DNA from: Myxococcales bacterium
GTDB lineage: Bacteria; Myxococcota_A; UBA9042; JABWCM01; BTVJ01
Assembly (NCBI GenBank): GCA_045863395.1
Contig: BTVJ01000033.1
Coordinates: 19,552-83,551, forward strand
Length of the DNA: 64,000 nt
Reading direction: 5' to 3'
Shown: piece by piece, positions 24,496-55,333 of the stretch
Numbering within the stretch: position 1 is the first letter of the stretch
Layout of the letters: every line of letters starts with the position of its first letter
Program-made: the position numbers and the translations under genes
Notes under the pieces: model-generated
What the model was told of the DNA's origin: nothing
Database searches by the model: none
What the model saw: only the letters and a program-made list of their open reading frames with translations

Positions 24496-25479
24496 CTACT
24501 GTTCGGCGAAGATCTCGTCCAGGGTGGTCGCGTCGAGGACGCGGTCGACCCAGCGGTCGAGCTGCTCGCGGGTGGCGGCGGTCATGCGGTCGTCGGCCCA
24601 GGCGGGGAGGGGCCCGAAGCGTCGCTCAAGCAGCCGTCGGAGCACCGCGGCCTCGCCCAGCCCCCGCCCCTTCTCGATGCCCTTCTCGATGCCCTTCTCG
24701 ATGCCCGTCTGGATGCCCTTCTCGATGCCGATGCGCTCGATGCTGGTGATGTAAGGCATGTGTCTCTCCTGCTCGATTCTGTCGAGGGTGTCTCTGAACG
24801 TGAACTCCAGGTCTCGTGGAAGGACGAGTACCCAGTCGATGAAACGGAAGAGGTTGAGGACATCGTCCCTGGACGCGCCTCGGTCGTATAACAAGGTGGT
24901 CAGCTCGGTCTTCCATTGGAGGCGCAGGGCTGGGTCTCTGCGGGAGTCGATGGCGCGGAGATGCGCGAGTACGGCGATGGCGAACGGGTTGTCGCTCTTG
25001 GTGAGTGAATCGACGTCGCTGCGGAGGTCGAGGAGCTTCACGGCGGGAAACTGCATGGAGACGTGTGTGCCCCAGAGGCGCGAGTCGAAGCGGCTTGGGC
25101 GCCACGCGGGGCGGTCGTCGGCGAGGACGGCGAAGCTGGCGACGGAGGCGTCGTAACGGTCGAAGAGGCGGTAGTTGTAGACGAACATGCGCTTGGCGAA
25201 GAGGTGGTCGTCGGTGCCTTGGACCTCGATGTGTGCGAAGACCCAGGTCTCGTCGCCGGAGATCTTGAAGACCCGGACGAGCTTGTCGGCGTATTGTCGG
25301 CCGAGGTCTGCGTCCCTGGTGACCTGCTGTAGCTCGGTGTCGAGGAAGTCGTAGGGCCTCGCCCAGTCGATGTCGGCTGCTGCCTCGGGGAAGAAGAGCT
25401 CCATGAAGCGGGGGAAGTAGGCCTCGAGGATCTCCTTCCACGGGCTGTCGAAGTCTGACGAAGTGGGGTCGTCGGCCAC
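24496..25479 (-). CDS. Rpn family (recombination-promoting nuclease/Transposase_31-like) PD-(D/E)xK protein with DUF4351-like C-terminus
   Basis: FDSPWKEILEAYF, FLDTELQQ, ADKLVRV, HIEVQG, FAKRMFVYNYRLFD, FIDWVLVLP, MPYITSIERIG, GIEK repeats, RRFGPLP; GTG start inferred. Confidence 0.88.
   Translation of the reverse strand: MADDPTSSDFDSPWKEILEAYFPRFMELFFPEAAADIDWARPYDFLDTELQQVTRDADLGRQYADKLVRVFKISGDETWVFAHIEVQGTDDHLFAKRMFVYNYRLFDRYDASVASFAVLADDRPAWRPSRFDSRLWGTHVSMQFPAVKLLDLRSDVDSLTKSDNPFAIAVLAHLRAIDSRRDPALRLQWKTELTTLLYDRGASRDDVLNLFRFIDWVLVLPRDLEFTFRDTLDRIEQERHMPYITSIERIGIEKGIQTGIEKGIEKGIEKGRGLGEAAVLRRLLERRFGPLPAWADDRMTAATREQLDRWVDRVLDATTLDEIFAEQ
24668..24729. repeat. 12-bp tandem repeat encoding GIEK/GIQT units in the Rpn C-terminus
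   Basis: CCCTTCTCGATG repeated, with one variant unit. Confidence 0.8.
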
Positions 25480-25603
25480 CTCAGTCTGGACGTTCCGGTC
25501 CCTCTGTGTCACGTCGGTCCTCGCTCTTGCGGTCTGCCCGCGCTCGGGCGGGGCCAGGCCAGCCCTGGCAGGGTAGGCGGAGGAGCGGGCGGAGATCAAG
25601 GCG

Positions 25604-25632
25604 TTGCCTGGTGATTGGGGACGTGCTACAGG
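25604..25632 (+). promoter_or_regulatory. Putative sigma70-type promoter of the DGR target gene
   Basis: TTGCCT-17 nt-TACAGG with upstream TG; same CGTTGC-N12-GACGTGCTACA pattern recurs at 33583-33611. Confidence 0.45.
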
Positions 25633-25729
25633 GCTGGGATGCGCGGGTTGGTCGGCGGGCGACGCGAGGTCGGTGCTTCGCGCCGTGCGGCGGGTGGGGT
25701 TGTACGTCGAGCACAGAGGAGGTCGAGCG

Positions 25730-28700
25730 ATGGGGAGCGATGGGACGGGGCTGCGTGGGGTGGTGGCGCGCGTGGCGCGGCTGGGTGGAGCGGCGGTGGT
25801 GGTCTGCACGCTGTGGGCGGCTGCGTTGGCGGAGGCGGCGCCCGGGGCGATCCCGTATCGAGGGGAGCTGACCTACGCGGACGGGACTCCCTTTGACGGG
25901 ACGGTGGAGGTGAAGGCTGCGCTGTATGCGTCGGAGACTGGAGGCACGGCGGTCTGGGGCCCTGCGACGTGGCCGTCGGTGTCGGTGAACGGCGGTACGC
26001 TGGAGGTGGTTCTCGGCGACGCGCCGAGCCCTGCGCTGGACGGGTCGGAGCTCCCTCCGGACGGGCTTTGGCTGGAGCTGTGGGTGGACGGGGTCAAGCT
26101 GGAGCCTCGGCAGCGTGTGCTCTCGACGGCGTACTCGCTGCGTTCGGGGGACGCGGAGCGCCTCGGCGGCGAGGAGGCGAGCGCGTATGCGACGCACGAG
26201 TCTGTCGAGGCCGCGGGCTATCTGCGGTCGAGCGATGTCTCCTCGGTGGCGCTGACGGGCGCCTATGGCGACCTGAGCGGGACGCCGAGCCTGAGCGTCT
26301 ACGCACAGAAGAGCGAGCTTGCAGCGGTGGCGACGAGCGGGGCGTATGCAGACCTGACGGGAGCGCCGAGCCTTGGGGCGTATGCGCTCGTTTCGGAGGT
26401 GGCGCCGGTGTGCTGGTCGGGGTCCTACGCGGACCTCGCCAACACGCCCGACCTGTCGGTGTTCGTTCTGGTGACGGACCTCCACCCCATTGCGCAGTCC
26501 GGCGCGTGGTCAGACCTGGAGGGGGCGCCTGACGCGGCGGCCTTCCTTCGCGCGGACGGGACGACGCCTCTCGGCGGCCCGTGGGACGCCGGGGGCCAGC
26601 CTGTGTCGAACCTGGTTGTGGGGAGCTCTGCGAGCCCGCCGTCGGGGGTGGCGGGTCAGCTCTGGTGGGACGGTGCGGCGGGGGTGCTGAAGATCCACGA
26701 CGGGTCGTCGTGGCTCCCCGTGAGCGGCGAGGCGGGGGGCGGTGGCGTTGCGACGGCGTTGCAGTGCAGCGGCTGCGTGGACGAGGTGGCGCTGTCGTTC
26801 GCGCTGAGCGCCGTGGCCAAGAGCGGGAGCTACGGGGACCTGAGCGGCGCGCCGGCGCTCGCCGCGGTGGCGACGAGCGGCCAGTACGCGGACCTGTCAG
26901 GCGCCCCGAGCCTCGACGCCTACGCCATGAAGTCGAGTCTGTCGGCGGTGGCGACGAGCGGGAAGTACGGGGACCTGTCGGGCGCGCCGAGCCTCGCGGA
27001 CTACGCCAAGAAGGCGGAGCTGTCCGCGGTGGCGAGCACGGGCGCCTACACGGACCTGTCCGGGACGCCGAACCTTGGGGGCTACGCGCTGATCTCTGAT
27101 GTGGCTCCGGTGTGCTGGTCCGGGTCCTACGCGGAGCTTTCGAACACTCCGGATCTGTCGTCGTTCGTGCACCTGGCGGACCTGCACCCCATCGCGCAGT
27201 CTGGCTCCTACGCAGATCTGGCGGGCAAGCCGGACCTCGGCGCGTATCTTCGCGCGGATGGGACGGTGAAGCCCGTGGCGCCGCTGGACCTGTCGCAGCA
27301 GCCCTTGTTGAACGTGGTGGTGCACAACGCGGCGGTTGCCCCCGGGTCTCCGAAGCCGGGTCAGCTCTGGTACGACACGACGTCGTCGTCGCTGCGTGTG
27401 TGGACGGGCCTGTCGTGGGTGGCGACGGGCGGCGCGGCGGTGCTCCCCGTCGATGGTCTCGACCAGGTGTCGAACGGGGTGTTGACGACGAAGTTCGAGT
27501 CGAGCGCGTGGTCGAGCGGGGTGCCGGCGGAGGTGAAGGACTACTGGCCGGCGGGGACGAGCGTGAGCCTGACGGTGAATGACCCGGGGGCGCTGCTGTG
27601 GCTCAAGGTCCATGTGAAGGTGACGCACCCGAGCGCGACGGATCTCCGGGTGGTGCTGACTCCTCCGAGCGGCGGGCCCATCGTGCTGCACGACCGGACG
27701 GCGGGGCAGGCGGGTGGCCTCGACGGGGAGTGGCCGCCGCTGGTGCCAGCATCGGGTGACCTCACGAGCCTCCTCGGCACGGATCCGTCGGGCGTCTGGA
27801 GCGTGCACGTGGAGGACCAGGTGTTCAGCGGCGGGGTTGGCGGGACCATCGCGAAGCTCGGGGTGAGCTACGGGATCCTGCGGGGGACGCAGGTGGCGGT
27901 GAAGGGCGACCAGATCGTGGAGGGCGCGCTGACGGTGGGTGGGGTGGACGTGGGGGCGGAGCTCGCCTCTCTGAAGGCGGAGGTGTGGTGCCTGAAGGAG
28001 TGCGACGAGGCGAAGAAGGGGGACTGCCGGAAGTACGCGTGCGACGGGGCGTCGCAGGCGTGCCTGGACGCGGGCGGGCAGCCTGACGGGGCGGCGTGCT
28101 GGGGAGGAGCGGGGGTGTGCTTCGGCAGCGCGTGCTGCGTTCCGGGGACGTGCGCGACGCTCGGGGCAGGGTGCGGGCTCGTGGCGGACGGGTGCGGCGG
28201 AGTGATCGCGTGCGGGGAGTGCGTCGCGGGTCAGGTGTGCCACCAGAGCCAGTGCTGCGCGCCAGCGACGTGCGACGGGCTCGGGAAGGAGTGCGGGACG
28301 TGGGGGGATGGGTGTGGGGGCGTGGTGGAGTGCGGAGGATGCACGGGCGATTACGCCTGCGGTCCATCGGGGGCGTGCGACGCGTGGCTGGGCACCTGCG
28401 GCGGCGTCTCCTGCCCGTCGTTGAGCGGATACACGGCTACGTGCAACCCTCAGTCCCACTGCGAGTACGTCCGGAGCGCCCCGACGGCCCCCTGGCACAC
28501 GTGGGACGTGTGGATCTACGTGCCGCCGGGGAGCTTCCCGATGGGGTGTCCGGGCGGGAGCGAGACCTGCGGTGGCTCATCTGAGCAGCCGGTGCACACG
28601 GTGACCTTCGCGACGGGCTACCTCATCGCGAAGCACGAGATCGTGGTCACGCAGTACGAGGCGTGCCAGTCTGCGGGCACCTGCAGCGCAGCCTCCACGG

Positions 28701-29263
28701 CGGACTGGGACGGCAACGGCTGGGGCACGAACACGAGCGCGAACGGCCGGTCCTCGCACCCGCAGAACGGCCTCACCTGGCAGCAGTCGAAAGACTTCTG
28801 CGGGTGGGTCGCCTCGGGCGGTCGTCTGCCGAGCGAGGCGGAGTGGGAGTACGCGGCGACGGGGACGACGCACCGGAAGTACCCGTGGGGGAACGCGCCG
28901 GAGCCGACGTGCAGCAACGGGACGGCGGTGTTCAACGAGCTCGGCACAACGGCAGGTTACGGGTGCGGCACGGGCGGCACGTGGTCCGCAGGGAGCAAGA
29001 CGGCGGGCGCGTCCGCCCGAGGCGCCTTGGACATGGCGGGTAACCTCTGGGAGTGGGTGGAGGATTGCTGGCACGACAGCTACACTGGAGCGCCGACCAA
29101 CGGGAGCGCCTGGACGGACTCCTGCAGCGGCTCGTACCGCGTTGGTCGGGGCGGCGGCTTCAGCGACTCCGCCTCCAACCTGCGGGTCGCCCGGCGGAGC
29201 GACGTCACGCCGGGCTACCGCTACGCGAACCGGGGCGCCCGCTGCCTGAGGCCCTTCCCGTGA
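25730..29263 (+). CDS. DGR target protein (1177 aa): signal peptide, IPYRG N-domain, fibre-like VATSGxYxDLxGxP repeats, P-domain-like module, Cys-rich repeats, C-terminal FGE-sulfatase/C-type lectin domain containing the VR
   Basis: GAGGAGG RBS plus ATG 25730; GSFPMG, EQPVHTV, RLPSEAEWEYAA, DMAGNLWEWV, RGGGF...R...GARC; 3' end matches the TR. Confidence 0.9.
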   Translation: MGSDGTGLRGVVARVARLGGAAVVVCTLWAAALAEAAPGAIPYRGELTYADGTPFDGTVEVKAALYASETGGTAVWGPATWPSVSVNGGTLEVVLGDAPSPALDGSELPPDGLWLELWVDGVKLEPRQRVLSTAYSLRSGDAERLGGEEASAYATHESVEAAGYLRSSDVSSVALTGAYGDLSGTPSLSVYAQKSELAAVATSGAYADLTGAPSLGAYALVSEVAPVCWSGSYADLANTPDLSVFVLVTDLHPIAQSGAWSDLEGAPDAAAFLRADGTTPLGGPWDAGGQPVSNLVVGSSASPPSGVAGQLWWDGAAGVLKIHDGSSWLPVSGEAGGGGVATALQCSGCVDEVALSFALSAVAKSGSYGDLSGAPALAAVATSGQYADLSGAPSLDAYAMKSSLSAVATSGKYGDLSGAPSLADYAKKAELSAVASTGAYTDLSGTPNLGGYALISDVAPVCWSGSYAELSNTPDLSSFVHLADLHPIAQSGSYADLAGKPDLGAYLRADGTVKPVAPLDLSQQPLLNVVVHNAAVAPGSPKPGQLWYDTTSSSLRVWTGLSWVATGGAAVLPVDGLDQVSNGVLTTKFESSAWSSGVPAEVKDYWPAGTSVSLTVNDPGALLWLKVHVKVTHPSATDLRVVLTPPSGGPIVLHDRTAGQAGGLDGEWPPLVPASGDLTSLLGTDPSGVWSVHVEDQVFSGGVGGTIAKLGVSYGILRGTQVAVKGDQIVEGALTVGGVDVGAELASLKAEVWCLKECDEAKKGDCRKYACDGASQACLDAGGQPDGAACWGGAGVCFGSACCVPGTCATLGAGCGLVADGCGGVIACGECVAGQVCHQSQCCAPATCDGLGKECGTWGDGCGGVVECGGCTGDYACGPSGACDAWLGTCGGVSCPSLSGYTATCNPQSHCEYVRSAPTAPWHTWDVWIYVPPGSFPMGCPGGSETCGGSSEQPVHTVTFATGYLIAKHEIVVTQYEACQSAGTCSAASTADWDGNGWGTNTSANGRSSHPQNGLTWQQSKDFCGWVASGGRLPSEAEWEYAATGTTHRKYPWGNAPEPTCSNGTAVFNELGTTAGYGCGTGGTWSAGSKTAGASARGALDMAGNLWEWVEDCWHDSYTGAPTNGSAWTDSCSGSYRVGRGGGFSDSASNLRVARRSDVTPGYRYANRGARCLRPFP
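29121..29250 (+). repeat. DGR variable repeat (VR)
   Basis: Ungapped 130-bp match to 32989-33118 with 13 mismatches, all opposite TR adenines. Confidence 0.96.
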
Positions 29264-29331
29264 CCCCTTTTTCCTTTTCCCTCTTGCGCGAAGCGCCCAG
29301 ATATGCGAAGCGCGGACCTGCGACCCGAGGA

Positions 29332-29410
29332 GCCGGGGCAGGGTCGCGTCCAGGGGGCGCGAGGTGCGAGCGAAGCGAGCCGCGCCCCCAGGACGCGACC
29401 CTGCCCCGGC
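29332..29410. other. Long inverted repeat (hairpin/cruciform) downstream of the VR
   Basis: GCCGGGGCAGGGTCGCGTCC (29332-29351) is the perfect reverse complement of 29391-29410; an inner 9-bp stem follows an A/A mismatch; 19-nt loop. Confidence 0.8.
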
Positions 29411-29513
29411 CGTCGACGGAGCCACGGGCGCCCACCAGTCGAGCGGGCGGGCCCGCGAGTCTGGTGGGGCGCGGATATATGGCCATTTCCCGTGAGCGGG
29501 GAGCAGGCGCCCG

Positions 29514-30212
29514 ATGACGGAGGTGACCATCCTGACCCTCCCGTTCGATCCGCTTCTCGACGGGTTCCCGTCGGAGCGGATCCGGGACTACCTGCACGGG
29601 CGCGAGGTGGTGCACCTGAGCACCTTCCCGTTCGTCCACGAGGGGCGCCCCTACTGGTCGCTGTGCCTGTCGACGCGGCGGCACGTGGACGCCCCCGCCG
29701 CGGACTCCGCGGCCCCCGACGACGCGGCGCCCGTCCCCGAGGCGGTGCGCAAGGCGCTGGCCAAGGAGCTGCTCTCGGGGCTGGGCGAGCACGAGCGGGC
29801 GCTCTACGACCGGCTGCGGGGCTGGCGCCGGGACGTGGCCGCGGTGACGGGCCTCGCGCGGTTCATGGTCGCCTCGGACGCCCTGCTCATCGAGCTGGTG
29901 CGCCGGCGCCCGACCACCAAGGCGGGGCTGGCAGACATCAAGGGCCTCGGAGAGAAGAAGATCGCCGAGTACGGCGACGCGCTGCTGGAGGTGCTGCATG
30001 GAGCCGCCCGGCCTGGACCGGCGGGACGACCGGTACCTGCCCATCGTGCTCCGGTGGATGGACCTCACGACGTGGCTGCTGGAGACGACCCAGCGCTTCC
30101 CCCGCCATTGGAGGCACAGCCTGGTGAGCCGCATCGACGACGAGGCGCTCCAGGTGCTGACCCTGCTGAACGAGGCGACGTACAGGAAGCGCAAGGCGGA
30201 GACCCTGCGTGA
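29514..30212 (+). CDS. HRDC-domain protein (DGR accessory)
   Basis: LYDRLRGWRRDVA...FMVASDALLIELVRRRPTTKAGLADIKGLGEKKIAEYGDALLEVL; tail overlaps avd. Confidence 0.82.
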   Translation: MTEVTILTLPFDPLLDGFPSERIRDYLHGREVVHLSTFPFVHEGRPYWSLCLSTRRHVDAPAADSAAPDDAAPVPEAVRKALAKELLSGLGEHERALYDRLRGWRRDVAAVTGLARFMVASDALLIELVRRRPTTKAGLADIKGLGEKKIAEYGDALLEVLHGAARPGPAGRPVPAHRAPVDGPHDVAAGDDPALPPPLEAQPGEPHRRRGAPGADPAERGDVQEAQGGDPA

Positions 30213-30441
30213 GGCGAACCACGCCCTGAACCGCATCCGCGTGCTGCTGGAGGTCGCGGTGCGCATCGCGGTCCTCCCGCGCAACGCCCACGCCCACGCC
30301 CTGGTGGCGCTGGACGAGGTGGGCCGCATGCTCGGCGGGTGGATCGCGCATGCCGCCGCGCGGGAGGGGCCACGCGGCCCCGCACGACCCCCGGGCGCCA
30401 TGGAGCCCCCCGATGCGCCCACCCCGACCCGGCGTCCGTGA
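29998..30441 (+). CDS. avd: DGR accessory variability determinant (Avd-like four-helix bundle)
   Basis: TQRFPRHWRHSLVSRI...LREAN...EVGRMLGGW; stop overlaps the RT start. Confidence 0.88.
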   Translation: MEPPGLDRRDDRYLPIVLRWMDLTTWLLETTQRFPRHWRHSLVSRIDDEALQVLTLLNEATYRKRKAETLREANHALNRIRVLLEVAVRIAVLPRNAHAHALVALDEVGRMLGGWIAHAAAREGPRGPARPPGAMEPPDAPTPTRRP

Positions 30442-31454
30442 CCGCGCCGCCGTCCCGCCCCATCCCGCCCACTCCACCCGTGGAGGTCGCCTTCGGCGTC
30501 GCGGCGCTGCACCGGGCGATGACCCGGGCCCTGCGGGGCCACCGGCGGGACGGGGAGGCCGCGCGGTTCGCGGTGGCGGCGGGCCCCGAGCTGTGCGCCC
30601 TCTCCCGCGATCTGCTCGCCGGCACCTGGACCCCCGGCCCGGCGCGGGCCTTCCCCGTGCGCGATCCGAAGCCGCGCACGGTGGTGGAGCTGCCCTTCCG
30701 GGACCGCGTGGTGCACCACGCGCTGCTCGCCGCCATCGAGCCGGCCCTGGACGCGCAGCTCGACCCCTGCTCCTACGCCTGCCGCCGCGGCATGGGCGTG
30801 CACCGCGCGGCGCGCTGCGTGCAGGAGCTGATGGGCGACCACAGCCACGCCCTGAGCCTCGATGTCCAGAAGTACTTCGAGACGCTGCCGCACCTCGCAG
30901 TCACCGCGATCCTCGAAGACCTCGGCGTCCCGCCCTCCTACCGCGCCCTCTGCGCGCGCATCCTCGGCGCGGGCAACGGCTCCGGCCGCGGGATGCACAT
31001 CGGCGCGCTGACGAGCCAGCTCTTCGGCAACCTGGGGCTCCACCCGGTGGAGGTCCTGCTCCGCCGCGACTTCCCCGACACGGATCACGCCAAGTACATG
31101 GACGACCTCGTGATCCTGGGTCCCGGCAAGCGCCGGCTCTGGGAGGCCCGGGACGCGGTGGCGACCGCGCTCGCGGGGCTCGGTCTGGCGCTGCGCCCCG
31201 AGGCGACGCGCCTGGTCCCGGTGAGCGAGGGGGTCTCCTTCGTGGGGCTGCGCATCCACCGGGAGGTCATCCGGGTCCCCGCCAGGGCCCGTGTGCGGCT
31301 CGGCCGCCGCATCCGGGCAACCGCAGCGGCGTGGGCCCGGGGCGCCACCACCACGGAGCAGGCGCGGGCGTCGGTGGCGGGCTGCGTCCAGGCCGCTCGC
31401 GGTGCCCGCCTGCCGGCGCTGGACCGCTTGCCCCGAGGGTTGGCCGAGACCTGA
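30438..31454 (+). CDS. DGR reverse transcriptase
   Basis: DPKPR, PFRDRVVHHAL, SYACRRGMGVH, LDVQKYF, GMHIGALTSQLFGN (DGR-type IG..SQ), YMDD, FVG; GTG 30438 overlaps the avd TGA. Confidence 0.93.
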   Translation: MTAPPSRPIPPTPPVEVAFGVAALHRAMTRALRGHRRDGEAARFAVAAGPELCALSRDLLAGTWTPGPARAFPVRDPKPRTVVELPFRDRVVHHALLAAIEPALDAQLDPCSYACRRGMGVHRAARCVQELMGDHSHALSLDVQKYFETLPHLAVTAILEDLGVPPSYRALCARILGAGNGSGRGMHIGALTSQLFGNLGLHPVEVLLRRDFPDTDHAKYMDDLVILGPGKRRLWEARDAVATALAGLGLALRPEATRLVPVSEGVSFVGLRIHREVIRVPARARVRLGRRIRATAAAWARGATTTEQARASVAGCVQAARGARLPALDRLPRGLAET

Positions 31455-31620
31455 GCGCGACCAGACGCCCGCCCACAGCAGAGAGCAAGGCCGCGTCGCT
31501 GGCCGGGGAGCCCACCCGGCCGCGCCCGCCGGCCCGATCGGGGGCGCTGCCCTGCGGCGCCGGGGGGGGCGGTCGCCCCGGGGCGGGTCGCGCCGCTCTG
31601 CACTCCCCCGGCCGAGCCGC

Positions 31621-32574
31621 TCAGTGCAGGAGCCGCCGCAGGCGCTCGATCTCCTCGGGCGACAGCCCCCGAATCCGGTCCTCGGGCGGGATCCCCGCGA
31701 GCCTGTCCTCGGGCGGGATTCCCGCGAGCCTCTCCTGGGGCGGGATCCCCGCGAGCCTCTCCTGGGGCGGGATCCCCGCGAGCCTCTCCTGGGGCGGGAT
31801 CCCCGCGAGCCTCTCCGCGGGTGGGATTCCCGCGAGCCTCTCCTCGACGGGGAGGCGCCGGAACAGCTCGAGCTGCTCCTCGTGGGTCATCTCCAGGATC
31901 ATCTCGCGGGCGTGCTGCCTTAGTCTCTCCATGATCTGGGCTTCGCGTTGGGTCATGGGTGCCTCCTCTGCGGGGCGCGAGAGCCCCCGGATGATGTCGA
32001 CAATGTAGCACATCAGCTCCGACTCGACGACGCGGCCTCCGCGAGGCGAGCGGTGCTTCAGGCGAAACAGGTCCATGAGCGGGTCCGTGTCGCCGAGGAC
32101 CTCGGTCTCGAAGACGAAGCAGGGGAAGGGGAGGCCGGCGACGCGGTGGACGCCGGGGCCCTCGGGAACAATGGCCCCCCCCATGCGCTGTACGTCGGTG
32201 CGAAACGCGTCCGTGAGGGCCGGCGCGCAGACATGCAGCCGCACGTCCTCGTGGGGCACGTCGGCCAGCTCCCCTCCGAGGGCGAGCACGGCGCAGCCGA
32301 CGAGGTGGTGCAGCTCTCCCAGGCCCAGGGAGTCGCCCGGGCCCTTGAGCTCGAAGAGGGTGCAGGGAGAGAGGCGCGAGAGCATCTCCGCGAAGTGAGG
32401 CGCCGGCCTGGTCGCGGGCGCGCCGCGTAGAATCACCGCGTCGATGCGCAGCGGGAGGTGACCGACGGCCACCTCGCGCCGCAGCTCTCCGTCGATGAGG
32501 TGGCCGAGGACCTCGTAGAAGAGGAAGTGCCACGGGGTTCGTCTCCGCCCCGCGCGTCGCCTTCGCCGTGCCAT
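31621..32574 (-). CDS. Rpn-like/PD-(D/E)xK-type protein with C-terminal LAGIPPxER repeats
   Basis: TPWH, REVAVGHLPLRIDAVIL, LFELKGPGD nuclease-like pattern; 9-aa tandem repeats; start uncertain. Confidence 0.65.
   Translation of the reverse strand: MARRRRRAGRRRTPWHFLFYEVLGHLIDGELRREVAVGHLPLRIDAVILRGAPATRPAPHFAEMLSRLSPCTLFELKGPGDSLGLGELHHLVGCAVLALGGELADVPHEDVRLHVCAPALTDAFRTDVQRMGGAIVPEGPGVHRVAGLPFPCFVFETEVLGDTDPLMDLFRLKHRSPRGGRVVESELMCYIVDIIRGLSRPAEEAPMTQREAQIMERLRQHAREMILEMTHEEQLELFRRLPVEERLAGIPPAERLAGIPPQERLAGIPPQERLAGIPPQERLAGIPPEDRLAGIPPEDRIRGLSPEEIERLRRLLH
31681..31842. repeat. 27-bp tandem repeat, 6 copies, coding (ERLAGIPPQ)
   Basis: CTGGGGCGGGATCCCCGCGAGCCTCTC-type units with no spacers. 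Confidence 0.9.
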
Positions 32575-32804
32575 GGGTGCTCCGTCATGTGGCTGGTCTT
32601 CGGGCGCCCGGTCGTGCGGCGGCCGGACGGCGCACCCCTTCGTCTTCTCGTGCCGCCGCGTTGCGCGGAGAGCGCGCGGCGGCGCAAGGCCGCGGCCACA
32701 CTGCGCTTCCCCTTGCGGAGGGCGCGCCGGACGCCCCGCGAGGCGACCCAAAGGTGGCCGCGCCGGACGCCATCCCCCGGCGCGCGCGTGCAGGATCCCG
32801 GCAT

Positions 32805-32922
32805 AGTCGCCGGGACCAAACTTCAGGCGTCGGACTACAGGCTTCAGGCACGTGCAAGGCTGCGATTTCCCGTAGCCTGAAGTTTGAAGCCCGTTGCCGG
32901 CTGAGGACTTTGTCCGGGGCCC
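32805..32922. repeat. ~118-bp hairpin-forming repeat, copy 1 (upstream of the TR)
   Basis: About 16 mismatches to 33446-33563; CAAACTTCAGGC (32817-32828) pairs with GCCTGAAGTTTG (32875-32886). Confidence 0.85.
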
Positions 32923-32988
32923 GGCGCGCGTGTGCCTCGGCCCTTCACGGGCACCGCGCCACGCGGTAGAGTCTCGGCCGGAGACGGG

Positions 32989-33118
32989 CCAGCAGCGGCT
33001 CGAACCGCGTTGATCGGGGCGGCAGCTTCAACAACTCCGCCTCCAACCTGCGGGTCGCCCAGCGGAACAACGACACGCCGGGCAACCGCAACGCGAACCA
33101 GGGCGCCCGCTGCCTGAG
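32989..33118 (+). ncRNA. DGR template repeat (TR)
   Basis: Adenine-rich copy of the VR; 27 A, 9 AAC codons in the VR frame; followed by GC-rich stem-loops. Confidence 0.93.
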
Positions 33119-33445
33119 CCCACGGGTTCCGCCCGCCGCCGTCCGGCCACGGCCGGCCGGCCCGCGCACAGGCCGTGGCCATGGGCCCGCGCTCCAGACC
33201 CCGGCGGCGGAGCGGCTCCGCCGCCGGGGCGAACCCCAGATGCGCAGGACACACCGGCCCCTGCCGAGAGTGAGTGGTCTCGGCGACCGCCCGCGGCCGG
33301 CCTCGACCCGGGCAATCAGGCACGTGCGCAGACACTCTGGGCGATGGCGGAGACGCACGGGCGGGCGTCCGTGGGGAGGTGGAGGGGCGGTCACGGCCCC
33401 ATCGGCGCGACCTCGGGGACCGTCGTCTCAGCCCTCCAGGGTCCC

Positions 33446-33563
33446 AGTCGCCGGGGCCAGACTTCAGGCGTCGGGCTACAGGCTTCAGGCACGTGCAAGG
33501 CGGCGGTCTCCCGGCGCCTGGAGTCTGGAGCCCGCAGCCGGCCGAGGACTTCGTCCGAGGCCC
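33446..33563. repeat. ~118-bp hairpin-forming repeat, copy 2 (downstream of the TR)
   Basis: Direct repeat of 32805-32922 at 641-bp offset; stem CAGACTTCAGGC/GCCTGGAGTCTG. Confidence 0.85.
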
Positions 33564-33649
33564 TGCTCAGCCCTCAGACAGCCGTTGCGCACTGCGCAGC
33601 GACGTGCTACACCGGAAGTCCACGGCTCTCGGCGAGCGGAGGTCGCGGA

Positions 33650-34281: not shown

Positions 34282-36693
34282 ATGAAGCAGAACACGAAGC
34301 AGGGAGCGAAGGCCGCCCAAAGCCCAAAGAACCTCGCCGGGTTGGGTATGCCGGCGTGGCTCCAGCCCCTCGCGTCGTCCTCCTTTGCACAGGGGCAGAC
34401 TCTCACCTGTCCGGCGGGGCCGACCGCGGGGGCTCCGCTGCTTCAGCCCGGGACGCAGGCGGGGTTCGCGGGGGGCGGGCTCGGCGGTGGGGGCGGCAAG
34501 GGTCTCGGGGGCGCGCCCAAGCCCGTCTCGCGGCCCGTGCTCTTGGAGCGCATGGCGCACACCTACGCCTACGAGAAGCAGGTGTCGACGGAGGACGCCG
34601 CCGCCCTCGCCGACGCCGGCTATGTGGCCTCGGCCCCTGAGCGCGGGTCCGCTGGGTTCGCGATGATGCGCTTCGTGCCGACGCGGCCGGACGCAGGGCC
34701 GCCCGTGCTGGCGCTGCGCGGCACTCACGTGACCGATGTGAAGGACATCCTTGCGGACACCTCGCCCGAGGGCGTGGGGATCTACGCGTTCTTCGCGAAC
34801 GAGGGGCTCATCGCGACCGCGTTGGCGGACCTCCAGGCACACGGTCGCCCGGAGGTCTGCGGCCACAGCTTGGGCGGGGCTCTGGCGCAGCTCACGGCGG
34901 CCCTGTATCCCGGGTACGTGTCGCACGTCACGACGTTCCAGTCGCCGGGGATTCCGCCCAAGTACCGGCAGATCCTCGAGACATGGAACAAGAAGACCGT
35001 GGCCTCGGGGGGCGCACCGGTGCTCTCCGACCACCACGTGGTGGCGGGGGACGCCGTCACGGGGAACGTCGGCGAGGCGCTCACGCCCGGCACGCTGCAC
35101 ACCTGGACCAAGAAGGAGCCGCAGAAGGGTCCGATGTCGCCTCTGCTCGCCCCGAGCATCACCGGGACGCTCATCGACGCTGTCGTGGACCCCGTCAAGC
35201 TGCACACGACTCACCCGGTGGAGGAGCACGCGACGGGGGGCGACTGGACCGAGACGCAGGCCGACTCGTCGAGCTGGAAGGGGTCGAGCGTCAAGGAGTT
35301 CACCCGCATTCTCGGGGGCAGCGTCTACCACCTCTTCGATCTGGACGAGGACGCCTACATGAGCGGGTACCCCCCGCTCCGAGACCGGCTCGTCCGGGGG
35401 GAGGCCCTCGACTCGGTGCTGAAGGACGTCCCGAGCCTCCTGGCGGACAAGGGGGTCGAGCAGCGTATCGCCGACAACCTGGCGGCCCTGTCGAAGGTCT
35501 TGAACAAGCCTGCCGGTCTGGCGGGCTCCTCGGGCCCACAGATGTGCTTGGCGCTGGACGTCACGACACGCGGTGGGTTCCTCGCGACCTTGAGCAAGCG
35601 CTACGGCCTGAAACAGGTCGCGAGCGAGTCTCCCGAGGCGGCCGTCAAGACTGCGAAGGCCGCCGGGCTGCTCCAGCAGGAGCGCCCGCACGACACCCTG
35701 ACCCGGGCGGAGTCCGCGGCGATCCTCACGCGCATCTTCGGCCTCGACTGGAGCGCCGCCGAGAAGCAGACCGCGTACTTTGCGGACCTGGTCGAGGGCA
35801 CCTGGCAGTTTGACGTGGCGCACGCCTGCCGCCGGTGGGGCATCTACCTCGGGACGAAAGAGAACCGCTTCGAGGCGGACAGGGCGATGACTCCTGGCGA
35901 GGCCGGGATCGTGCTGGACCGCATCGGAGCCCGCAAGAAGCTGACCTTCGCAGAGCAGAGCGCGCACCTCGCCGTGCCGGCGTTGCGCGAGCCCTCGAAG
36001 GTGGAGGCCATGTTGTCTGGCAAGGACCTGACTCCGGCGCAGATCGCGACGCTCCGCGAGCAGATCAAGAGCCTCCCGAAGGAGCAGCGCCCCGATGCCT
36101 ACCGGCGTCTGAACGCCCTTGTGGCGTACCGCAACCAGCGCAACAACGCGGGCGGGGTCACCATCCCCGACTGGATGTGCAACGTCACATCCCTCGCCAT
36201 GGTCCTTGAGGGCCTCGGAGTCGCGCAGGACGGCCCGGGCCAGCACGAGGACACCCTGGCGAACCGGCACCGCGACGCGGGCATGAAGGGGACCATCTTC
36301 GACGAGGCCGGGCAGAACGCCATCGCGAAGGACAAGGGGGTGACGGGCGAGCGCAAGAGCTACACGGGAGCCCGCACCGCGGCGGGAGCGAAGGCGTGGT
36401 TCCACGAGCACGTCCTGCCGCGCTTCGAGGAGGGCGCGCAGGCCACCATGTCCATCACCGCGTGGGGCGACGGTCATATCGTCCGGGTCCAGTGGGTGGA
36501 GGACCGCGGGGTGCTCGTGGACGACCCGTATGGGGGCGTGCAGAAGAGCAAGGCGGGAGGGTTCGACGGCTACGGCAAGACCGCCAACTCCACGTCCAAG
36601 GAGCGCGGCGACGGGACCTTCGGCGAGGACAACTTGTGGACGTGGGACTTCCTGGCGCGCGAGGTGAGGTACGTGCACTTCTTCACGAAGTGA
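34282..36693 (+). CDS. Multidomain protein: lipase class 3-like, SLH-like repeats, C39-like peptidase
   Basis: VLALRGT, CGHSLGGALAQ, TFQSPG; TLTRAESAAILTR and FADL...RFEADRAMT (SLH-like); CNVTSLAM...GHIVR...DDPYG. Confidence 0.7.
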   Translation: MKQNTKQGAKAAQSPKNLAGLGMPAWLQPLASSSFAQGQTLTCPAGPTAGAPLLQPGTQAGFAGGGLGGGGGKGLGGAPKPVSRPVLLERMAHTYAYEKQVSTEDAAALADAGYVASAPERGSAGFAMMRFVPTRPDAGPPVLALRGTHVTDVKDILADTSPEGVGIYAFFANEGLIATALADLQAHGRPEVCGHSLGGALAQLTAALYPGYVSHVTTFQSPGIPPKYRQILETWNKKTVASGGAPVLSDHHVVAGDAVTGNVGEALTPGTLHTWTKKEPQKGPMSPLLAPSITGTLIDAVVDPVKLHTTHPVEEHATGGDWTETQADSSSWKGSSVKEFTRILGGSVYHLFDLDEDAYMSGYPPLRDRLVRGEALDSVLKDVPSLLADKGVEQRIADNLAALSKVLNKPAGLAGSSGPQMCLALDVTTRGGFLATLSKRYGLKQVASESPEAAVKTAKAAGLLQQERPHDTLTRAESAAILTRIFGLDWSAAEKQTAYFADLVEGTWQFDVAHACRRWGIYLGTKENRFEADRAMTPGEAGIVLDRIGARKKLTFAEQSAHLAVPALREPSKVEAMLSGKDLTPAQIATLREQIKSLPKEQRPDAYRRLNALVAYRNQRNNAGGVTIPDWMCNVTSLAMVLEGLGVAQDGPGQHEDTLANRHRDAGMKGTIFDEAGQNAIAKDKGVTGERKSYTGARTAAGAKAWFHEHVLPRFEEGAQATMSITAWGDGHIVRVQWVEDRGVLVDDPYGGVQKSKAGGFDGYGKTANSTSKERGDGTFGEDNLWTWDFLAREVRYVHFFTK

Positions 36694-36871: not shown

Positions 36872-39800
36872 ATGGCAGGCGTAACGCGAAGGTTGGTCTC
36901 AGTCGCCCTGGGAGCCGCACTGTCCTTGGCGGCGGCGTCCGGGCGAGCGGTGCCGACGCAGATCCCCTACCGCGGTGATCTGACCTACTCAGACGGGACT
37001 CCTTACGACGGCGAGGTCACCCTCTCGGTGGCGCTCTACGCGTCTGAGACCGGCGGAGCTCCGGTGTGGGGCCCGTCAGAGTATACGGAGGTGGAGGTGG
37101 AGAGCGGAGCGCTGGAGGTCGTGATGGGCGCTCCTCCCGGGCCGCCGCTGGACGCCTCGCTCCTGCCGCCCGGCGGTCTCTGGATCGAGCTGGCCGTCGA
37201 TGGGACCACGCTGGAGCCCAGACAGCGCGTGCTGTCCGCGGCCTACGCGCTGCTGGCCGGCGACGCCGAGCGCCTCGGTGGCGAGGACGCGAGCGCGTTC
37301 GCGACCCACGACGACGTCGCCGCCCAGGGCTTCCTGACGCCCGCGGCGGTGGGAGCCGTGGCCCTGAGCGGCGCCTACGCGGACCTGATGGATGCGCCCG
37401 ACCTGGGGGCCTACCTGAGGGCGGACGGCACCACCCCGCTGGCCGGGCCCTGGAGTCTGGGTGGACATTCGCTGAGCGGCGTCGTCATTGGCGGGGGCCC
37501 CGTCCCCCTGGGAGCCGCGGCGGGCCAGCTCTGGTGGGACTCCGGTGCGGCCGTCATGAAGATCTACAACGGCACGGCCTGGCTCCCCGTCAGCGGCGAG
37601 GCGGGCGGGGGCGGCATCGCCTCGGCGCTCCAGTGCTCCGGTTGTGTCGACGAGGGGGCCCTGTCCTTCGCCCTCGCGGCCGTGGCAAAGAGCGGCGCGT
37701 ACGCGGACCTGGCCGGCGCGCCGGTGCTCGCGTCCGTGGCGACGAGCGGCGCCTACGCGGACCTCTCCGGCGCGCCCAGCCTCGACGCCTACGCGACGAA
37801 GGCGAGCCTCGCGTCCGTGGCGACGAGCGGCGCCTACGCGGACCTCTCCGGCGCGCCCAGCCTCGACGCCTACGCGACGAAGGCGAGCCTCGCGTCCGTG
37901 GCGACGAGCGGCGCCTACGTGGACCTCTCCGGCGCCCCGGATCCCGCCGCCTTCGCGCTCGTCTCGGACGTGGCGCCGGTCTGCTGGTCGGGCAACTGGG
38001 CCGACCTGAGCGGAGCGCCAGACCTGGCCGCGTACCTCAGGGCCGACGGGAGCGTCGCGCTGACCGGGGACCTGGACGTGGCGGGCCATCGCCTCGTCGC
38101 CGCGGCGGTCGACTCGGGCCCTTCCCCGCCGCCTGGTCCCGCCAAGGGCCAGCTCTGGTACGACACGGGCACGAGCCGGCTCCGGGTGTGGTCAGGGGTC
38201 GCCTGGGGCTCGGCGGGCGGTGAGGGCGGGTCCACGGATCTACCTCCCGACGGGCTGGAGGCCGTCTCCAACGGCACGCTCTCGAACCTCATCGACCGCT
38301 CCTGGCCGGCGCCCGGGCTCCCGGCGCCCATCGGCGAGTCGGTGGAGGCGACCATCCTCGTCACCGACAAGGGCGTCCTGCGCGACATCACGCTCTTCGT
38401 CGCCGTCACGCACCCCTTCGTCCCGGAGCTCGAGGTCCGCCTCTTTCCCCCCGGAGGCTCGGACAGCTTCCTCCTGCTTCCTCCCAACGGCGCGATGGGC
38501 TCCTCCGTCAACCTCACGGTCACCCAGAGCACGCTGCTTCCCGGAGGCATGACCCTCGGTCTCCTCCTGGAGAGCGAGCAGCAGGGCCCATGGGTCGTCC
38601 GCGTCACGGACACCGTGATCAACGGCAACGAGGGCCCCGGCCAGCTCGTCTCCGCTTCATTGGCGCTCCGCTTTCTGTCGGACTCCGAGGTCGCCGTGCC
38701 GGGCAAGCTGGCGGTCTCCGGGACTGTGGGTGTCTCGGGGGCATTGGATGTGTCGGGCACCTTGATGGTGAACGCGGTCCGAGACTCCGCCTTCTGCGAC
38801 GGGACCAACAACGGCGCGCTCTGGATGGATCCCACGGACTGGACGCTGCACGCCTGTGTGGCAAAGGAGAAGGTGGCGATCTACTCCAGCGTGGCGACCC
38901 AACAGTGGGCACCGAACCGCAAGCACTATGTCTTCACGACCAGCGCGACGTACAGCGGCGACCTGGGTGGAGTGGCGGGCGCCGATGCCAAGTGCCAGCA
39001 GGCGGGCTCCGAGGGCTCGCTGAGCGCGTCCCTGGCCCCGGGCGCGTCGTGGAAGGCTCTGCTCTCCTCGAAGACGGAGGGAGTCAATGCCGCGGACCGG
39101 TTGGACATCGTCGAGAAGGTACTGACTCTGAAGGGCATCGCTGTAGCGAGCGGCAAGGCAGACCTGTTCGACGGCTCGATCAGCTCGAAGATTGCGGCGA
39201 GCACGGAGCTGGGCACTGACGTCTCGGGAGATGAGGTCTGGACCGGGTCGCAGACCGACGGCAAGCACCAGGGCACCGCCAACGACTGCGCCGGATGGAC
39301 CAGCGTGTCCACGTCCGCGGACGGGATGGTCGGGCTGACCAGCAGCACGAACAGCGCATGGATCGCCTACTCGAATACCACCGGGTCCTGTGCCAACCTG
39401 CGGCGGCTCTATTGCGTCTCCAGCCTCGTGGATGACTCCACGGACGCCCCAAAGGTGCACACGGGTGTGGCACCCCTCCAGGTGTGCCCGACGTCCGGGG
39501 CTGCGTGCCTTGGGAAGTATGTCTCGTCCGCGGGCACGACCAGGCAGGACGCAACCTTCTATTACGAAAAGACCACCGTGTCGACCGGCCTCGGCTCGGT
39601 CAAGGTGTACGGGACGTGCTCGAACACGCTCAAGCTCGCGACGACCACCGGGACATCCTATTACACCGGCTCAGACTGCCAGGGAAGCGAGTACACGAGC
39701 ACATCGACGAGCGCGTACGCCTACCGTGCGAGCGACGGCGTGATCTGCCACGCGACCAGCTCGACATCGATCTCGGTCGCGAGCACGAAGACCGGCGCCG

Positions 39801-39877
39801 GTTGCGTGAACACCACGACCAGCATGTCGGGCTACCTCGTGTCGGGCGACGTCAATCAGCTCTACGAGGTCCGCTGA
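36872..39877 (+). CDS. Paralogue of the DGR target (1001 aa): same N-domain, fibre repeats and P-domain-like module; DUF1554-like domain and Ser/Thr-rich tip
   Basis: IPYRGDLTYSDGTPYDG, LEPRQRVLS, WLPVSGEAGGGG, ALQCSGCVDE shared with 25730; VFTTSATYSGDLGGVAGADAKCQ...VWTGS...RRLYC. Confidence 0.8.
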   Translation: MAGVTRRLVSVALGAALSLAAASGRAVPTQIPYRGDLTYSDGTPYDGEVTLSVALYASETGGAPVWGPSEYTEVEVESGALEVVMGAPPGPPLDASLLPPGGLWIELAVDGTTLEPRQRVLSAAYALLAGDAERLGGEDASAFATHDDVAAQGFLTPAAVGAVALSGAYADLMDAPDLGAYLRADGTTPLAGPWSLGGHSLSGVVIGGGPVPLGAAAGQLWWDSGAAVMKIYNGTAWLPVSGEAGGGGIASALQCSGCVDEGALSFALAAVAKSGAYADLAGAPVLASVATSGAYADLSGAPSLDAYATKASLASVATSGAYADLSGAPSLDAYATKASLASVATSGAYVDLSGAPDPAAFALVSDVAPVCWSGNWADLSGAPDLAAYLRADGSVALTGDLDVAGHRLVAAAVDSGPSPPPGPAKGQLWYDTGTSRLRVWSGVAWGSAGGEGGSTDLPPDGLEAVSNGTLSNLIDRSWPAPGLPAPIGESVEATILVTDKGVLRDITLFVAVTHPFVPELEVRLFPPGGSDSFLLLPPNGAMGSSVNLTVTQSTLLPGGMTLGLLLESEQQGPWVVRVTDTVINGNEGPGQLVSASLALRFLSDSEVAVPGKLAVSGTVGVSGALDVSGTLMVNAVRDSAFCDGTNNGALWMDPTDWTLHACVAKEKVAIYSSVATQQWAPNRKHYVFTTSATYSGDLGGVAGADAKCQQAGSEGSLSASLAPGASWKALLSSKTEGVNAADRLDIVEKVLTLKGIAVASGKADLFDGSISSKIAASTELGTDVSGDEVWTGSQTDGKHQGTANDCAGWTSVSTSADGMVGLTSSTNSAWIAYSNTTGSCANLRRLYCVSSLVDDSTDAPKVHTGVAPLQVCPTSGAACLGKYVSSAGTTRQDATFYYEKTTVSTGLGSVKVYGTCSNTLKLATTTGTSYYTGSDCQGSEYTSTSTSAYAYRASDGVICHATSSTSISVASTKTGAGCVNTTTSMSGYLVSGDVNQLYEVR
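37727..37938. repeat. 81-bp tandem repeat (2 identical copies plus a partial third) encoding LASVATSGAYADLSGAPSLDAYATKAS
   Basis: Units start at 37727, 37808 and 37889. Confidence 0.88.
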
Positions 39878-55176: not shown

Positions 55177-55333
55177 CTCGGCGAGACTCCCAGGAGCCGC
55201 CGAGCGGTGATCATGGTCTCTGCGGCAGCGCAGGAAGGATTCTGCGGTAGACAAAGTGATGGAGGCGGGTTCATGCTGCCCCGCAGCTCGTGAGGACACC
55301 CAATTCGGAGCGCCCGGTGGGCGAGGAGGACAC

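What the first reader, a model, noticed from the sequence alone, without database searches (positions are those of the whole stretch)
25730..33240. Complete diversity-generating retroelement diversifying a secreted fibre-like lectin protein
Seen: VR 29121-29250 and TR 32989-33118 align without gaps over 130 bp. The 13 mismatches (TR 32991, 33003, 33013, 33024, 33031, 33033, 33061, 33067, 33069, 33073, 33084, 33090, 33100) are all TR adenines: 8 A>G, 5 A>T, out of 27 A. The TR reads SSGSNRVDRGGSFNNSASNLRVAQRNNDTPGNRNANQGARCL and the VR reads CSGSYRVGRGGGFSDSASNLRVARRSDVTPGYRYANRGARCL. An RT with IG..SQ and YMDD, an Avd and an HRDC gene lie between them. Established: this is the adenine-mutagenesis signature of DGRs (Bordetella BPP-1 paradigm), and FGE-type CLec domains are known targets. 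Inference: no non-A mismatch suggests recent activity, and the absence of recognisable phage genes suggests a cellular surface adhesin.
Basis: partly seen in the sequence, partly recalled or inferred. Interest (0 to 1): 0.92.

Follow-up and report, generated by a model that had tools for sequence, protein, structure and literature searches.

The report
Hypermutated tip on bacterial surface fibre
A myxobacterium-like microbe carries a known gene-scrambling device in its chromosome that rewrites the binding tip of a long secreted fibre resembling those that predatory bacteria use to grip prey.

Summary
Observation confirmed exactly: VR 29121-29250 and TR 32989-33118 differ at 13 of 130 positions, all TR adenines (P 7.7e-11). 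This is a chromosomal DGR of a known layout (target-HRDC-Avd-RT-TR). The RT nests among TR/VR-bearing RTs, and housekeeping genes flank it. DGRs are common in this class (Avd hit in 29 of 107 genomes). The less ordinary part is the target: a 1177-aa protein with a predicted signal peptide, an N-terminal module weakly like Bdellovibrio MAT fibres (below cut-off), a repeat stalk modelled as a homotrimer (0.81 vs control 0.00), and an FGE-type C-type-lectin tip. The genome has 63 ORFs with that module; only this one ends in an FGE tip. In a relative's orthologous fibre-DGR, 71 of 71 VR differences in five natural variants are reachable by A-to-N changes. Activity in this strain is not shown: no VR variant was seen in the likely source run, and a 1.5-kb insert separates RT from TR. 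Prey recognition is inference. Verdict: new variant of a known kind.

The parts
25730..29263 (+). DGR target gene, 1177 aa, predicted secreted fibre with FGE-type CLec tip
   Evidence: ORF; GAGGAGG 7 nt before the ATG; Pfam FGE-sulfatase aa 928-1174, E 1e-41
25730..25840 (+). Predicted Sec signal peptide (aa 1-37): basic N-region, hydrophobic stretch, A-E-A-type site
   Evidence: Read from the sequence; no signal-peptide predictor was available. The AF2 model gives a helix at aa 11-32 with low pLDDT. Homologues have the conserved module about 20-30 aa from their start
25841..26164 (+). Conserved beta-rich N-terminal module, weakly similar to Bdello_MAT_N
   Evidence: NF053851 E 0.0045, 16.8 bits, cut-off 60; 14 of 18 family members hit it, best E 2.8e-7; pLDDT 70-88; 63 ORFs in the genome
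26244..27247 (+). 27-aa (81-nt) repeat stalk with interspersed small beta modules
   Evidence: Repeat family D1; hits to PHROGs of unknown function; aa 36-330 x3 modelled as a homotrimer
27602..27823 (+). Proprotein-convertase P-domain (beta-sandwich)
   Evidence: PF01483 E 2.7e-8; Foldseek matches to furin and an Aeromonas serine protease
27962..28474 (+). Cys-rich linker (28 Cys in aa 745-915)
28511..29251 (+). FGE-type C-type-lectin domain; lacks the FGE catalytic Cys segment
   Evidence: TM to T. denticola TvpA 2Y3C 0.63
29121..29250 (+). Variable repeat (VR); about the last 18 nt (29233-29250) are the GC-rich IMH-like segment
29332..29410 (.). GC-rich inverted repeat (30-nt arms, 19-nt loop) downstream of the VR; candidate cruciform
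   Evidence: I13; DNA fold of 29245-29520 z -4.9; unique in the genome
29514..30212 (+). HRDC accessory gene; its frame runs 215 nt into avd
   Evidence: PF00570; a similar overlap occurs in relatives
29998..30441 (+). Avd accessory gene (pI 10.6)
   Evidence: NF033474 over cut-off; phrog_3206; pI
30438..31454 (+). DGR reverse transcriptase, 338 aa, IGALTSQ and YMDD intact
31621..32574 (-). Inserted ORF of an unnamed family with 9-aa C-terminal repeats, loosely Rpn-like; two paralogues elsewhere in the genome
   Evidence: No Pfam, NCBIfam or PHROG hit; tblastn; Atlas clusters unnamed
32805..32925 (.). 121-nt repeat, copy A (upstream of TR)
   Evidence: D11; only two copies in the genome
32980..33240 (+). 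TR-containing non-coding RNA region: TR 32989-33118 (IMH* at its 3' end) with short 5' and about 90-nt 3' flanks conserved in related DGRs
   Evidence: no Rfam family at its gathering score
33446..33566 (.). 121-nt repeat, copy B (downstream of TR)
   Evidence: D11
36872..39877 (+). Paralogous fibre with the same module, repeats and P-domain but a DUF1554/endostatin-like tip and no VR
   Evidence: 49-61% identity over the stalk, none over the tip

Best explanation
A chromosomal diversity-generating retroelement in a Myxococcota-type bacterium. Shown by sequence: TR, VR, RT, Avd, HRDC, IMH/IMH* and a downstream hairpin. Inferred from established DGR biology: the TR RNA is reverse-transcribed by RT-Avd with errors opposite adenines, and the cDNA replaces the VR. 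This can vary 17 codons (about 2.5e15 protein sequences) in the last 46 residues of the target. The target is most likely a secreted homotrimeric surface fibre (conserved cell-proximal module, repeat stalk, P-domain, Cys-rich linker, CLec tip) that works like a Bdellovibrio MAT adhesin. The DGR thus adds point hypermutation of one tip to a 63-member repertoire otherwise diversified by tip swapping. The ligand (a prey or partner cell surface) is inferred, not shown.
For: 13/13 mismatches at TR-A. 17 variable codons, 9 of them AAC. The RT sits in a 13-leaf clade (support 1.0) with L095 and L096, which both have TR/VR pairs, inside a 61-leaf clade with no viral contig. Flanks hold PheS/PheT, AroA, PrfB and Lon. 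Trimer model of aa 36-330: score 0.81, best of 3 controls 0.00, runs agree in at least 51% of contacts, pLDDT at least 76. That mark was reached by 20 of 30 solved homo-pairs and 1 of 23 single chains, counts that hold only roughly here. 63 genome ORFs carry the module, with varied C-termini. Of 80 homologues scanned, 4 carry S74, 9 collagen, 10 fibrinogen/COLFI, 6 beta-helix, 4 FGE, and 36 have no Pfam hit. The neighbouring paralogue has the same stalk and another tip. An orthologous fibre-HRDC-Avd-RT-TR locus exists in another genome (L272); five in-frame cluster members differ from its TR at 71 residues, all 71 reachable by A-to-N. A second cluster varies in 14 of 15 columns within the last 50 aa.
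Against: The MAT model is never reached at its cut-off (0 over cut-off in the genome; 16.8 of 60 bits for the target). No solved structure matches the module or stalk. The trimer job was given three copies, so it does not test stoichiometry. The VR was modelled at pLDDT below 50, so exposure of the variable residues was not tested. No VR variant appears in the likely source run's contigs. The RT-TR gap is atypical. One fibre cluster (2 members) shows no VR difference. No Flp/Tad pilin was found with PF04964, and predation by this organism is unshown. Only 2 of 34 class DGR loci examined have this stalk (many are cut by contig ends), and the close relative L095 targets a short non-fibre protein.
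Confidence: 0.72

Rival explanations
1. The same DGR, but switched off or broken in this strain: the 1.5-kb insert between RT and TR uncouples TR transcription, and the VR is a frozen past product. This is compatible with the best explanation's anatomy.
For: Gap of 1538 nt against -69 to 90 nt in 27 of 29 loci. The X1 contig spanning 25500-29338 has no other letters. A second DGR in the genome is visibly decayed.
Against: All ORFs are intact, there is no non-A mismatch, and the TR flanks are conserved. PMC5758913 section 22 reports nested ORFs and separately transcribed TR and RT. Contigs drop rare variants. RNA-run contigs identical to HRDC, avd and the RT 3' end exist in one study (DNA carry-over not excluded).
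Confidence: 0.35
2. The fibre is a secreted trimer, but its variable tip serves something other than prey capture: attachment to particles or biofilm, kin or partner recognition, or a decoy or receptor in conflict with phages.
For: No ligand data. PMC8144416 (passages) lists particle, cell and virus binding as options for cellular DGR targets. No predation marker was shown.
Against: Likeness to MAT fibres and a MAT-like mosaic family of 63. MAT homologues are listed for Myxococcales and Bradymonadaceae in PMC10769870 Supplementary Table.
Confidence: 0.4
3. A prophage or tailocin tail-fibre DGR, as in Bordetella BPP-1.
For: The stalk repeats hit PHROGs of unknown function. A CHAP/peptidoglycan-binding gene lies 4.5 kb upstream.
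Against: Predicted signal peptide. No capsid, terminase, tail or integrase among 29 + 12 ORFs scanned. G+C 0.67-0.76 across 18-42 kb against 0.71 for the genome. No viral contig in the 61-leaf RT clade; best viral RT identity 27-40%. The module occurs in 63 dispersed chromosomal ORFs.
Confidence: 0.04
4. The C-terminal domain is a formylglycine-generating or PvdO-like enzyme, and the repeat pair is an ordinary duplication.
For: The best structural matches are PvdO and FGE.
Against: The FGE catalytic Cys segment is absent (alignment; Cys roles recalled). Mismatches are confined to A (P 7.7e-11). RT, Avd and HRDC are adjacent.
Confidence: 0.01

Closest known systems
DGR Architecture C (HRDC-containing), target category 'b' (FGE-sulfatase CLec1), e.g. 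Treponema denticola TvpA (PMC5758913; PMC4891356; PDB 2Y3C)
   Same: Chromosomal, A-specific TR/VR, HRDC accessory gene, C-terminal FGE-type CLec target that is exported.
   Different: Order target-HRDC-Avd-RT-[insert]-TR, whereas Treponema has HRDC between TR and RT. The target is a 1177-aa predicted trimeric fibre, not a small lipoprotein. No such domain composition appears in the part of the section 14 text that I read.
Bordetella phage BPP-1 DGR (mtd-avd-TR-brt)
   Same: TR/VR, IMH/IMH*, GC-rich hairpin, Avd, RT; a CLec-fold tip on a fibre.
   Different: Cellular rather than phage; FGE subtype rather than Mtd; extra HRDC; TR lies after the RT.
Bdellovibrio MAT (mosaic adhesive trimer) fibres (PMC10769870; NF053851)
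   Same: Signal peptide, then a conserved beta-rich module of about 110-130 aa, a long trimeric stalk and swapped tips (S74 and CLec-type among them); a multi-gene family. The paper's supplement lists one Bdellovibrio homologue with an FGE tip, and Myxococcales and Bradymonadaceae homologues.
   Different: Similarity to NF053851 is below cut-off. The stalk is a 27-aa helical repeat, not a beta-helix. The host is Myxococcota-type with 63 members. The tip is a DGR target; no DGR link for MATs was found in the main text or the searchable supplement.

Membership tests
DGR | TR/VR pair differing at TR adenines | tested here: met
   13 of 13
DGR | RT of the DGR clade with an intact catalytic motif | tested here: met
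   IGALTSQ and YMDD. Groups with TR/VR-bearing RTs, apart from the genome's long group-II-like RTs used as root. No published reference RTs were in the tree.
DGR | Accessory gene (Avd and/or HRDC) | tested here: met
   NF033474 over cut-off; PF00570
DGR | IMH/IMH* and downstream GC-rich inverted repeat | tested here: met
   Invariant GC-rich 3' end that diverges after 29250; hairpin 29332-29410, about 80 nt downstream and longer than usual
DGR | VR at the C-terminus of a CLec or Ig fold | tested here: met
   FGE-type fold, Foldseek E 7e-15; TvpA TM 0.63
DGR | Variable residues surface-exposed around a binding site | tested here: inconclusive
   VR pLDDT below 50
DGR | Ongoing retrohoming in this population | tested here: inconclusive
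   Only contigs were available; no variant in X1; related contigs in X2-X4 differ mostly at TR-A
Bdellovibrio MAT fibres | Conserved N-terminal domain (NF053851 at cut-off 60) | tested here: not met
   16.8 bits; best in the genome 26.7 bits; 14 of 18 relatives hit weakly
Bdellovibrio MAT fibres | Signal peptide directly before the conserved domain | tested here: inconclusive
   Evident by eye in the target and paralogues; no predictor was run
Bdellovibrio MAT fibres | Homotrimeric fibre | tested here: inconclusive
   The model supports self-association with three copies given; not a measurement
Bdellovibrio MAT fibres | Mosaic family with diverse tips | tested here: met
Bdellovibrio MAT fibres | Surface display and prey binding | not testable with these tools
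   Needs a culture or heterologous expression

The most novel reading that the evidence does not exclude
A predatory myxobacterial lineage has put a phage-style tropism switch on its own prey-recognition apparatus. A DGR continuously re-randomises the tip of a MAT-like trimeric adhesin, giving a bacterial predator a BPP-1-like way to change prey range. It sits on top of a largely undescribed family of mosaic fibres: 63 per genome here, the module found in 84 of 107 class genomes, and 8475 clusters at 50% identity.
Probability: 0.3. Interest if true: 0.8.

Novelty: new variant of a known kind. Interest (0 to 1): 0.55.

Why it matters
How bacterial predators recognise many kinds of prey is an open question, and MAT fibres are the current answer for Bdellovibrio. 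A DGR-diversified fibre of similar design links that question to a well-understood mutagenesis machine and makes it testable: natural VR alleles of one fibre already exist (four distinct in-frame alleles in one cluster) and can be compared for binding. The locus also points to a large mosaic fibre family and to frequent cellular HRDC-Avd DGRs in a class of uncultured Myxococcota-type bacteria. The DGR machinery itself is ordinary.

Tried and rejected
Remote targets of this TR: none in the genome. The nearest candidates (C18, C32, C162) have 32-34 non-A mismatches. A template for those three VR-like genes was found neither in the genome nor in the loci held (best 10-13 non-A mismatches).

PheS homologue search for taxonomy was uninformative: the close hits are unnamed and the named hits, at about 60% identity, are mostly Chloroflexota. 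The Myxococcota reading rests on 18 MYXO-CTERM and 6 GC_trans_RRR hits over cut-off.

AF2 monomer of the full protein was poor (pLDDT 57, pTM 0.31); its viral fold matches have TMq 0.13 or less and are not used. The Atlas search of aa 30-330 gave leads only (best 0.90). No solved structure matches the module or stalk.

Rfam: nothing at gathering score. Promoter scan: no sigma-70 site. RNA fold of the TR 3' flank was not better than shuffles (z -0.97), and a 3-sequence consensus fold showed no net covariation.

The N-terminal module was found in 0 of 266 RT-centred loci (many truncated) and 1 of 20 further class loci. Gaps in contig cover in X2-X4 are not interpreted. Earlier-findings look-ups by place, RT sequence and words returned nothing.
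Full report
OBSERVATION. VR 29121-29250 and TR 32989-33118 align without gaps and differ at 13 of 130 positions, the 13 listed, all TR adenines (8 A>G, 5 A>T; 27 A in the TR); P = 7.7e-11. Similarity ends abruptly on both sides. The VR is the last 46 codons of a 1177-aa ORF (25730-29263). Seventeen codons contain a TR adenine, nine are AAC, and A-to-N changes give about 2.5e15 protein sequences.

CASSETTE. After the stop come a pyrimidine tract and a hairpin with 30-nt arms (29332-29410). Then follow HRDC (29514-30212), Avd (29998-30441; NF033474 91 bits, cut-off 80) and the RT (30438-31454; IGALTSQ, YMDD). An antisense ORF of an unnamed, loosely Rpn-like family (31621-32574) lies between RT and TR. 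The RT-stop-to-TR distance is therefore 1538 nt, against -69 to 90 nt in 27 of 29 HRDC-type loci with a TR; the other two are 570 nt and a TR upstream of the target. Ten duplicate loci were dropped before the count. The TR's 5' flank and about 90 nt of its 3' flank are conserved in three related DGRs, so the template RNA looks intact.

RT PLACEMENT AND SETTING. I built a FastTree of 119 RTs: all HRDC-type and class loci, every fourth other locus, 11 close proteins, rooted on two long non-DGR RTs of the genome. The window RT falls in a 13-leaf clade (support 1.0) with L095 and L096, both of which have TR/VR pairs. This sits inside a 61-leaf clade with 47 HRDC loci and none of the 20 viral contigs. 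No published reference RT was in the tree. The window holds PheS/PheT, AroA, PrfB, Lon and MsrA, and no phage structural gene was found among the ORFs scanned (29, 12). The genome is 8.77 Mb, 71% G+C and 97% complete. It has 18 MYXO-CTERM and 6 GC_trans_RRR hits over cut-off, which points to Myxococcota (abstract start of PMC11980579, seen only in the listing). A PheS search did not confirm this: its named hits at about 60% identity were mostly Chloroflexota. DGRs are frequent in the class. The Avd model hits 29 of 107 genomes, 17 over cut-off. A-biased TR/VR pairs were found in 12 of 14 and 10 of 20 class loci fetched.

THE TARGET. Its anatomy is a predicted signal peptide (read by eye), a beta-rich module (aa 38-145), 27-aa repeats, a P-domain, a Cys-rich linker and an FGE-type CLec domain. 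The tip's fold matches PvdO, FGE and T. denticola TvpA. It lacks the Cys segment of FGE (the catalytic role of those Cys is recalled). Three copies of aa 36-330 fold as a complex with score 0.81 against a best control of 0.00. The runs agree in at least 51% of contacts and pLDDT is at least 76. That mark was reached by 20 of 30 solved homo-pairs and 1 of 23 single chains, counts that hold only roughly for my own alignment and three copies. This supports self-association; it does not show it, and it does not fix the copy number.

THE FIBRE FAMILY. The N-terminal module occurs in 63 ORFs of this genome, mostly right after a signal-like segment, with unrelated C-termini; only this one ends in an FGE domain. 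It is found in 84 of 107 class genomes and in 8475 clusters at 50% identity. I scanned 80 of the 150 listed homologues, the best-ranked longer ones: 4 have S74, 9 collagen, 10 fibrinogen/COLFI, 6 beta-helix, 2 LamG, 4 FGE, and 36 have no Pfam hit. The paralogue at 36872-39877 shares the stalk but ends in a DUF1554/endostatin-like tip. This is the design of the Bdellovibrio MAT fibres (PMC10769870: passages, Discussion and supplement file 1 part 4 read; file 2 is a scan and could not be searched). The MAT N-terminal model is hit by 14 of 18 family members, best E 2.8e-7, but never at its cut-off. I therefore call the protein MAT-like in design, not a member.

EVIDENCE OF DIVERSIFICATION. In another class genome, L272 has the same fibre-HRDC-Avd-RT-TR order (RT 53.5% identical). 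Its target belongs to a six-member 90% cluster. The five in-frame members, four distinct VR alleles, differ from that TR at 14, 16, 16, 14 and 11 residues. All 71 differences are reachable by A-to-N alone, and all 16 variable columns are A-containing codons. The sixth member, the L272 copy itself, is frameshifted within the VR. A second cluster varies at 15 of 1024 columns, 14 of them in the last 50; a third, with two members, has no VR difference.

ACTIVITY IN THIS STRAIN. Only contigs could be laid. The likely source run X1 shows no other letter from 25500 to 29338. In X2-X4, 9 of the 11 VR rows shown are at TR-A positions and 2 are synonymous G>C. However, only 40 of 694 rows were displayed, those contigs are diverged relatives, and X3 and X4 are one study. 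RNA-run contigs identical to HRDC, avd and part of the RT exist, but DNA carry-over is not excluded. Current activity here is unproven.

MECHANISM. Shown: all cis and trans parts, the A-specific signature, and A-restricted variation in an orthologous fibre. Established for DGRs (PMC5758913, passages and sections 14 part 1 and 22 read): TR RNA is reverse-transcribed with A-to-N errors and homes to the VR at IMH. Inferred: the product is exported, trimerises, is anchored by the N-terminal module and presents a variable tip; the ligand may be a prey or partner surface.

COMPARISON AND NOVELTY. HRDC-containing DGRs (14 of 372, about half with avd), FGE targets (71 of 372) and nested ORFs are described in PMC5758913. 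Exported cellular targets with adhesion domains are the rule in PMC8144416 (passages). PMC4891356 and PMC11661182 were read as passages. An FGE-tipped MAT homologue and Myxococcales homologues are listed in the MAT supplement, with no occurrence of 'retroelement' in the searchable supplement. Searches for DGR with Myxococcota (0 papers), with predatory and myxobacteria (3), with Deltaproteobacteria, cellular and adhesin (0), with myxococc- (16) and with Bdellovibrio (2) showed, by listing, no paper describing a DGR-diversified MAT-like fibre. The library lacks most subscription papers. I did not see the supplements of the large DGR surveys, which may already list these loci.

VERDICT. A real, complete DGR of a known architecture, with a target type that appears undescribed. 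New variant of a known kind; interest 0.55.

Noticed in passing
G000 C18:150-2246(-), C32:93-2678(-), C162:4083-6299(+): Three FGE-CLec genes (two with N-terminal kinase-like domains, one caspase/PEGA-like, by eye) end in VR-like segments that differ almost only at codon positions 1-2 and share a downstream hairpin at contig ends. They look like remote targets of a second DGR whose TR is not in the assembly.
   Followed up: partly
G000 C68:63-938(+): Remnant ORF fusing a DGR RT N-terminal half (no YxDD) to the Avd C-terminus, directly behind the same hairpin: a deletion-decayed second DGR.
   Followed up: partly
window 29998-30212: The HRDC frame reads 215 nt into avd without a stop, and the avd ATG lies within the conserved EVLHG codons in several relatives. 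This may be translational coupling or a frameshift fusion, or simply stop scarcity at high G+C.
   Followed up: no
window 32805-32925 and 33446-33566: Two 121-nt direct repeats (86% identical, internally palindromic), present nowhere else in the genome, bracket the TR; they could mark how the TR was separated from the RT.
   Followed up: partly
window 24496-25809(-), 31621-32574(-); C68, C162, C2: Rpn/DUF4351-like ORFs recur beside the DGR, beside the decayed DGR and beside the orphan hairpin copies.
   Followed up: no
L272:6117-6247 (G044:C727): The orthologous fibre allele in this genome has a small insertion in the VR that shifts the frame of the last residues, possibly a retrohoming by-product.
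   Followed up: partly
L100 (G033:C27); L133: Tandemly duplicated HRDC DGR cassettes. G022 and G039 each carry several different DGR RTs.
   Followed up: no
window 18773-21181(+) and 34282-36693(+): A CHAP plus peptidoglycan-binding protein and a lipase-like protein flank the fibre genes; candidate prey-lytic enzymes.
   Followed up: no
G018:C2:31762-80569: A tandem array of at least 11 genes with the same N-terminal fibre module (ORFs of about 1200-1440 aa) in a class genome.
   Followed up: no
window 55256-56419(+): Secreted-looking protein with Cys-rich repeats and a long Gly/Ser tail.
   Followed up: no
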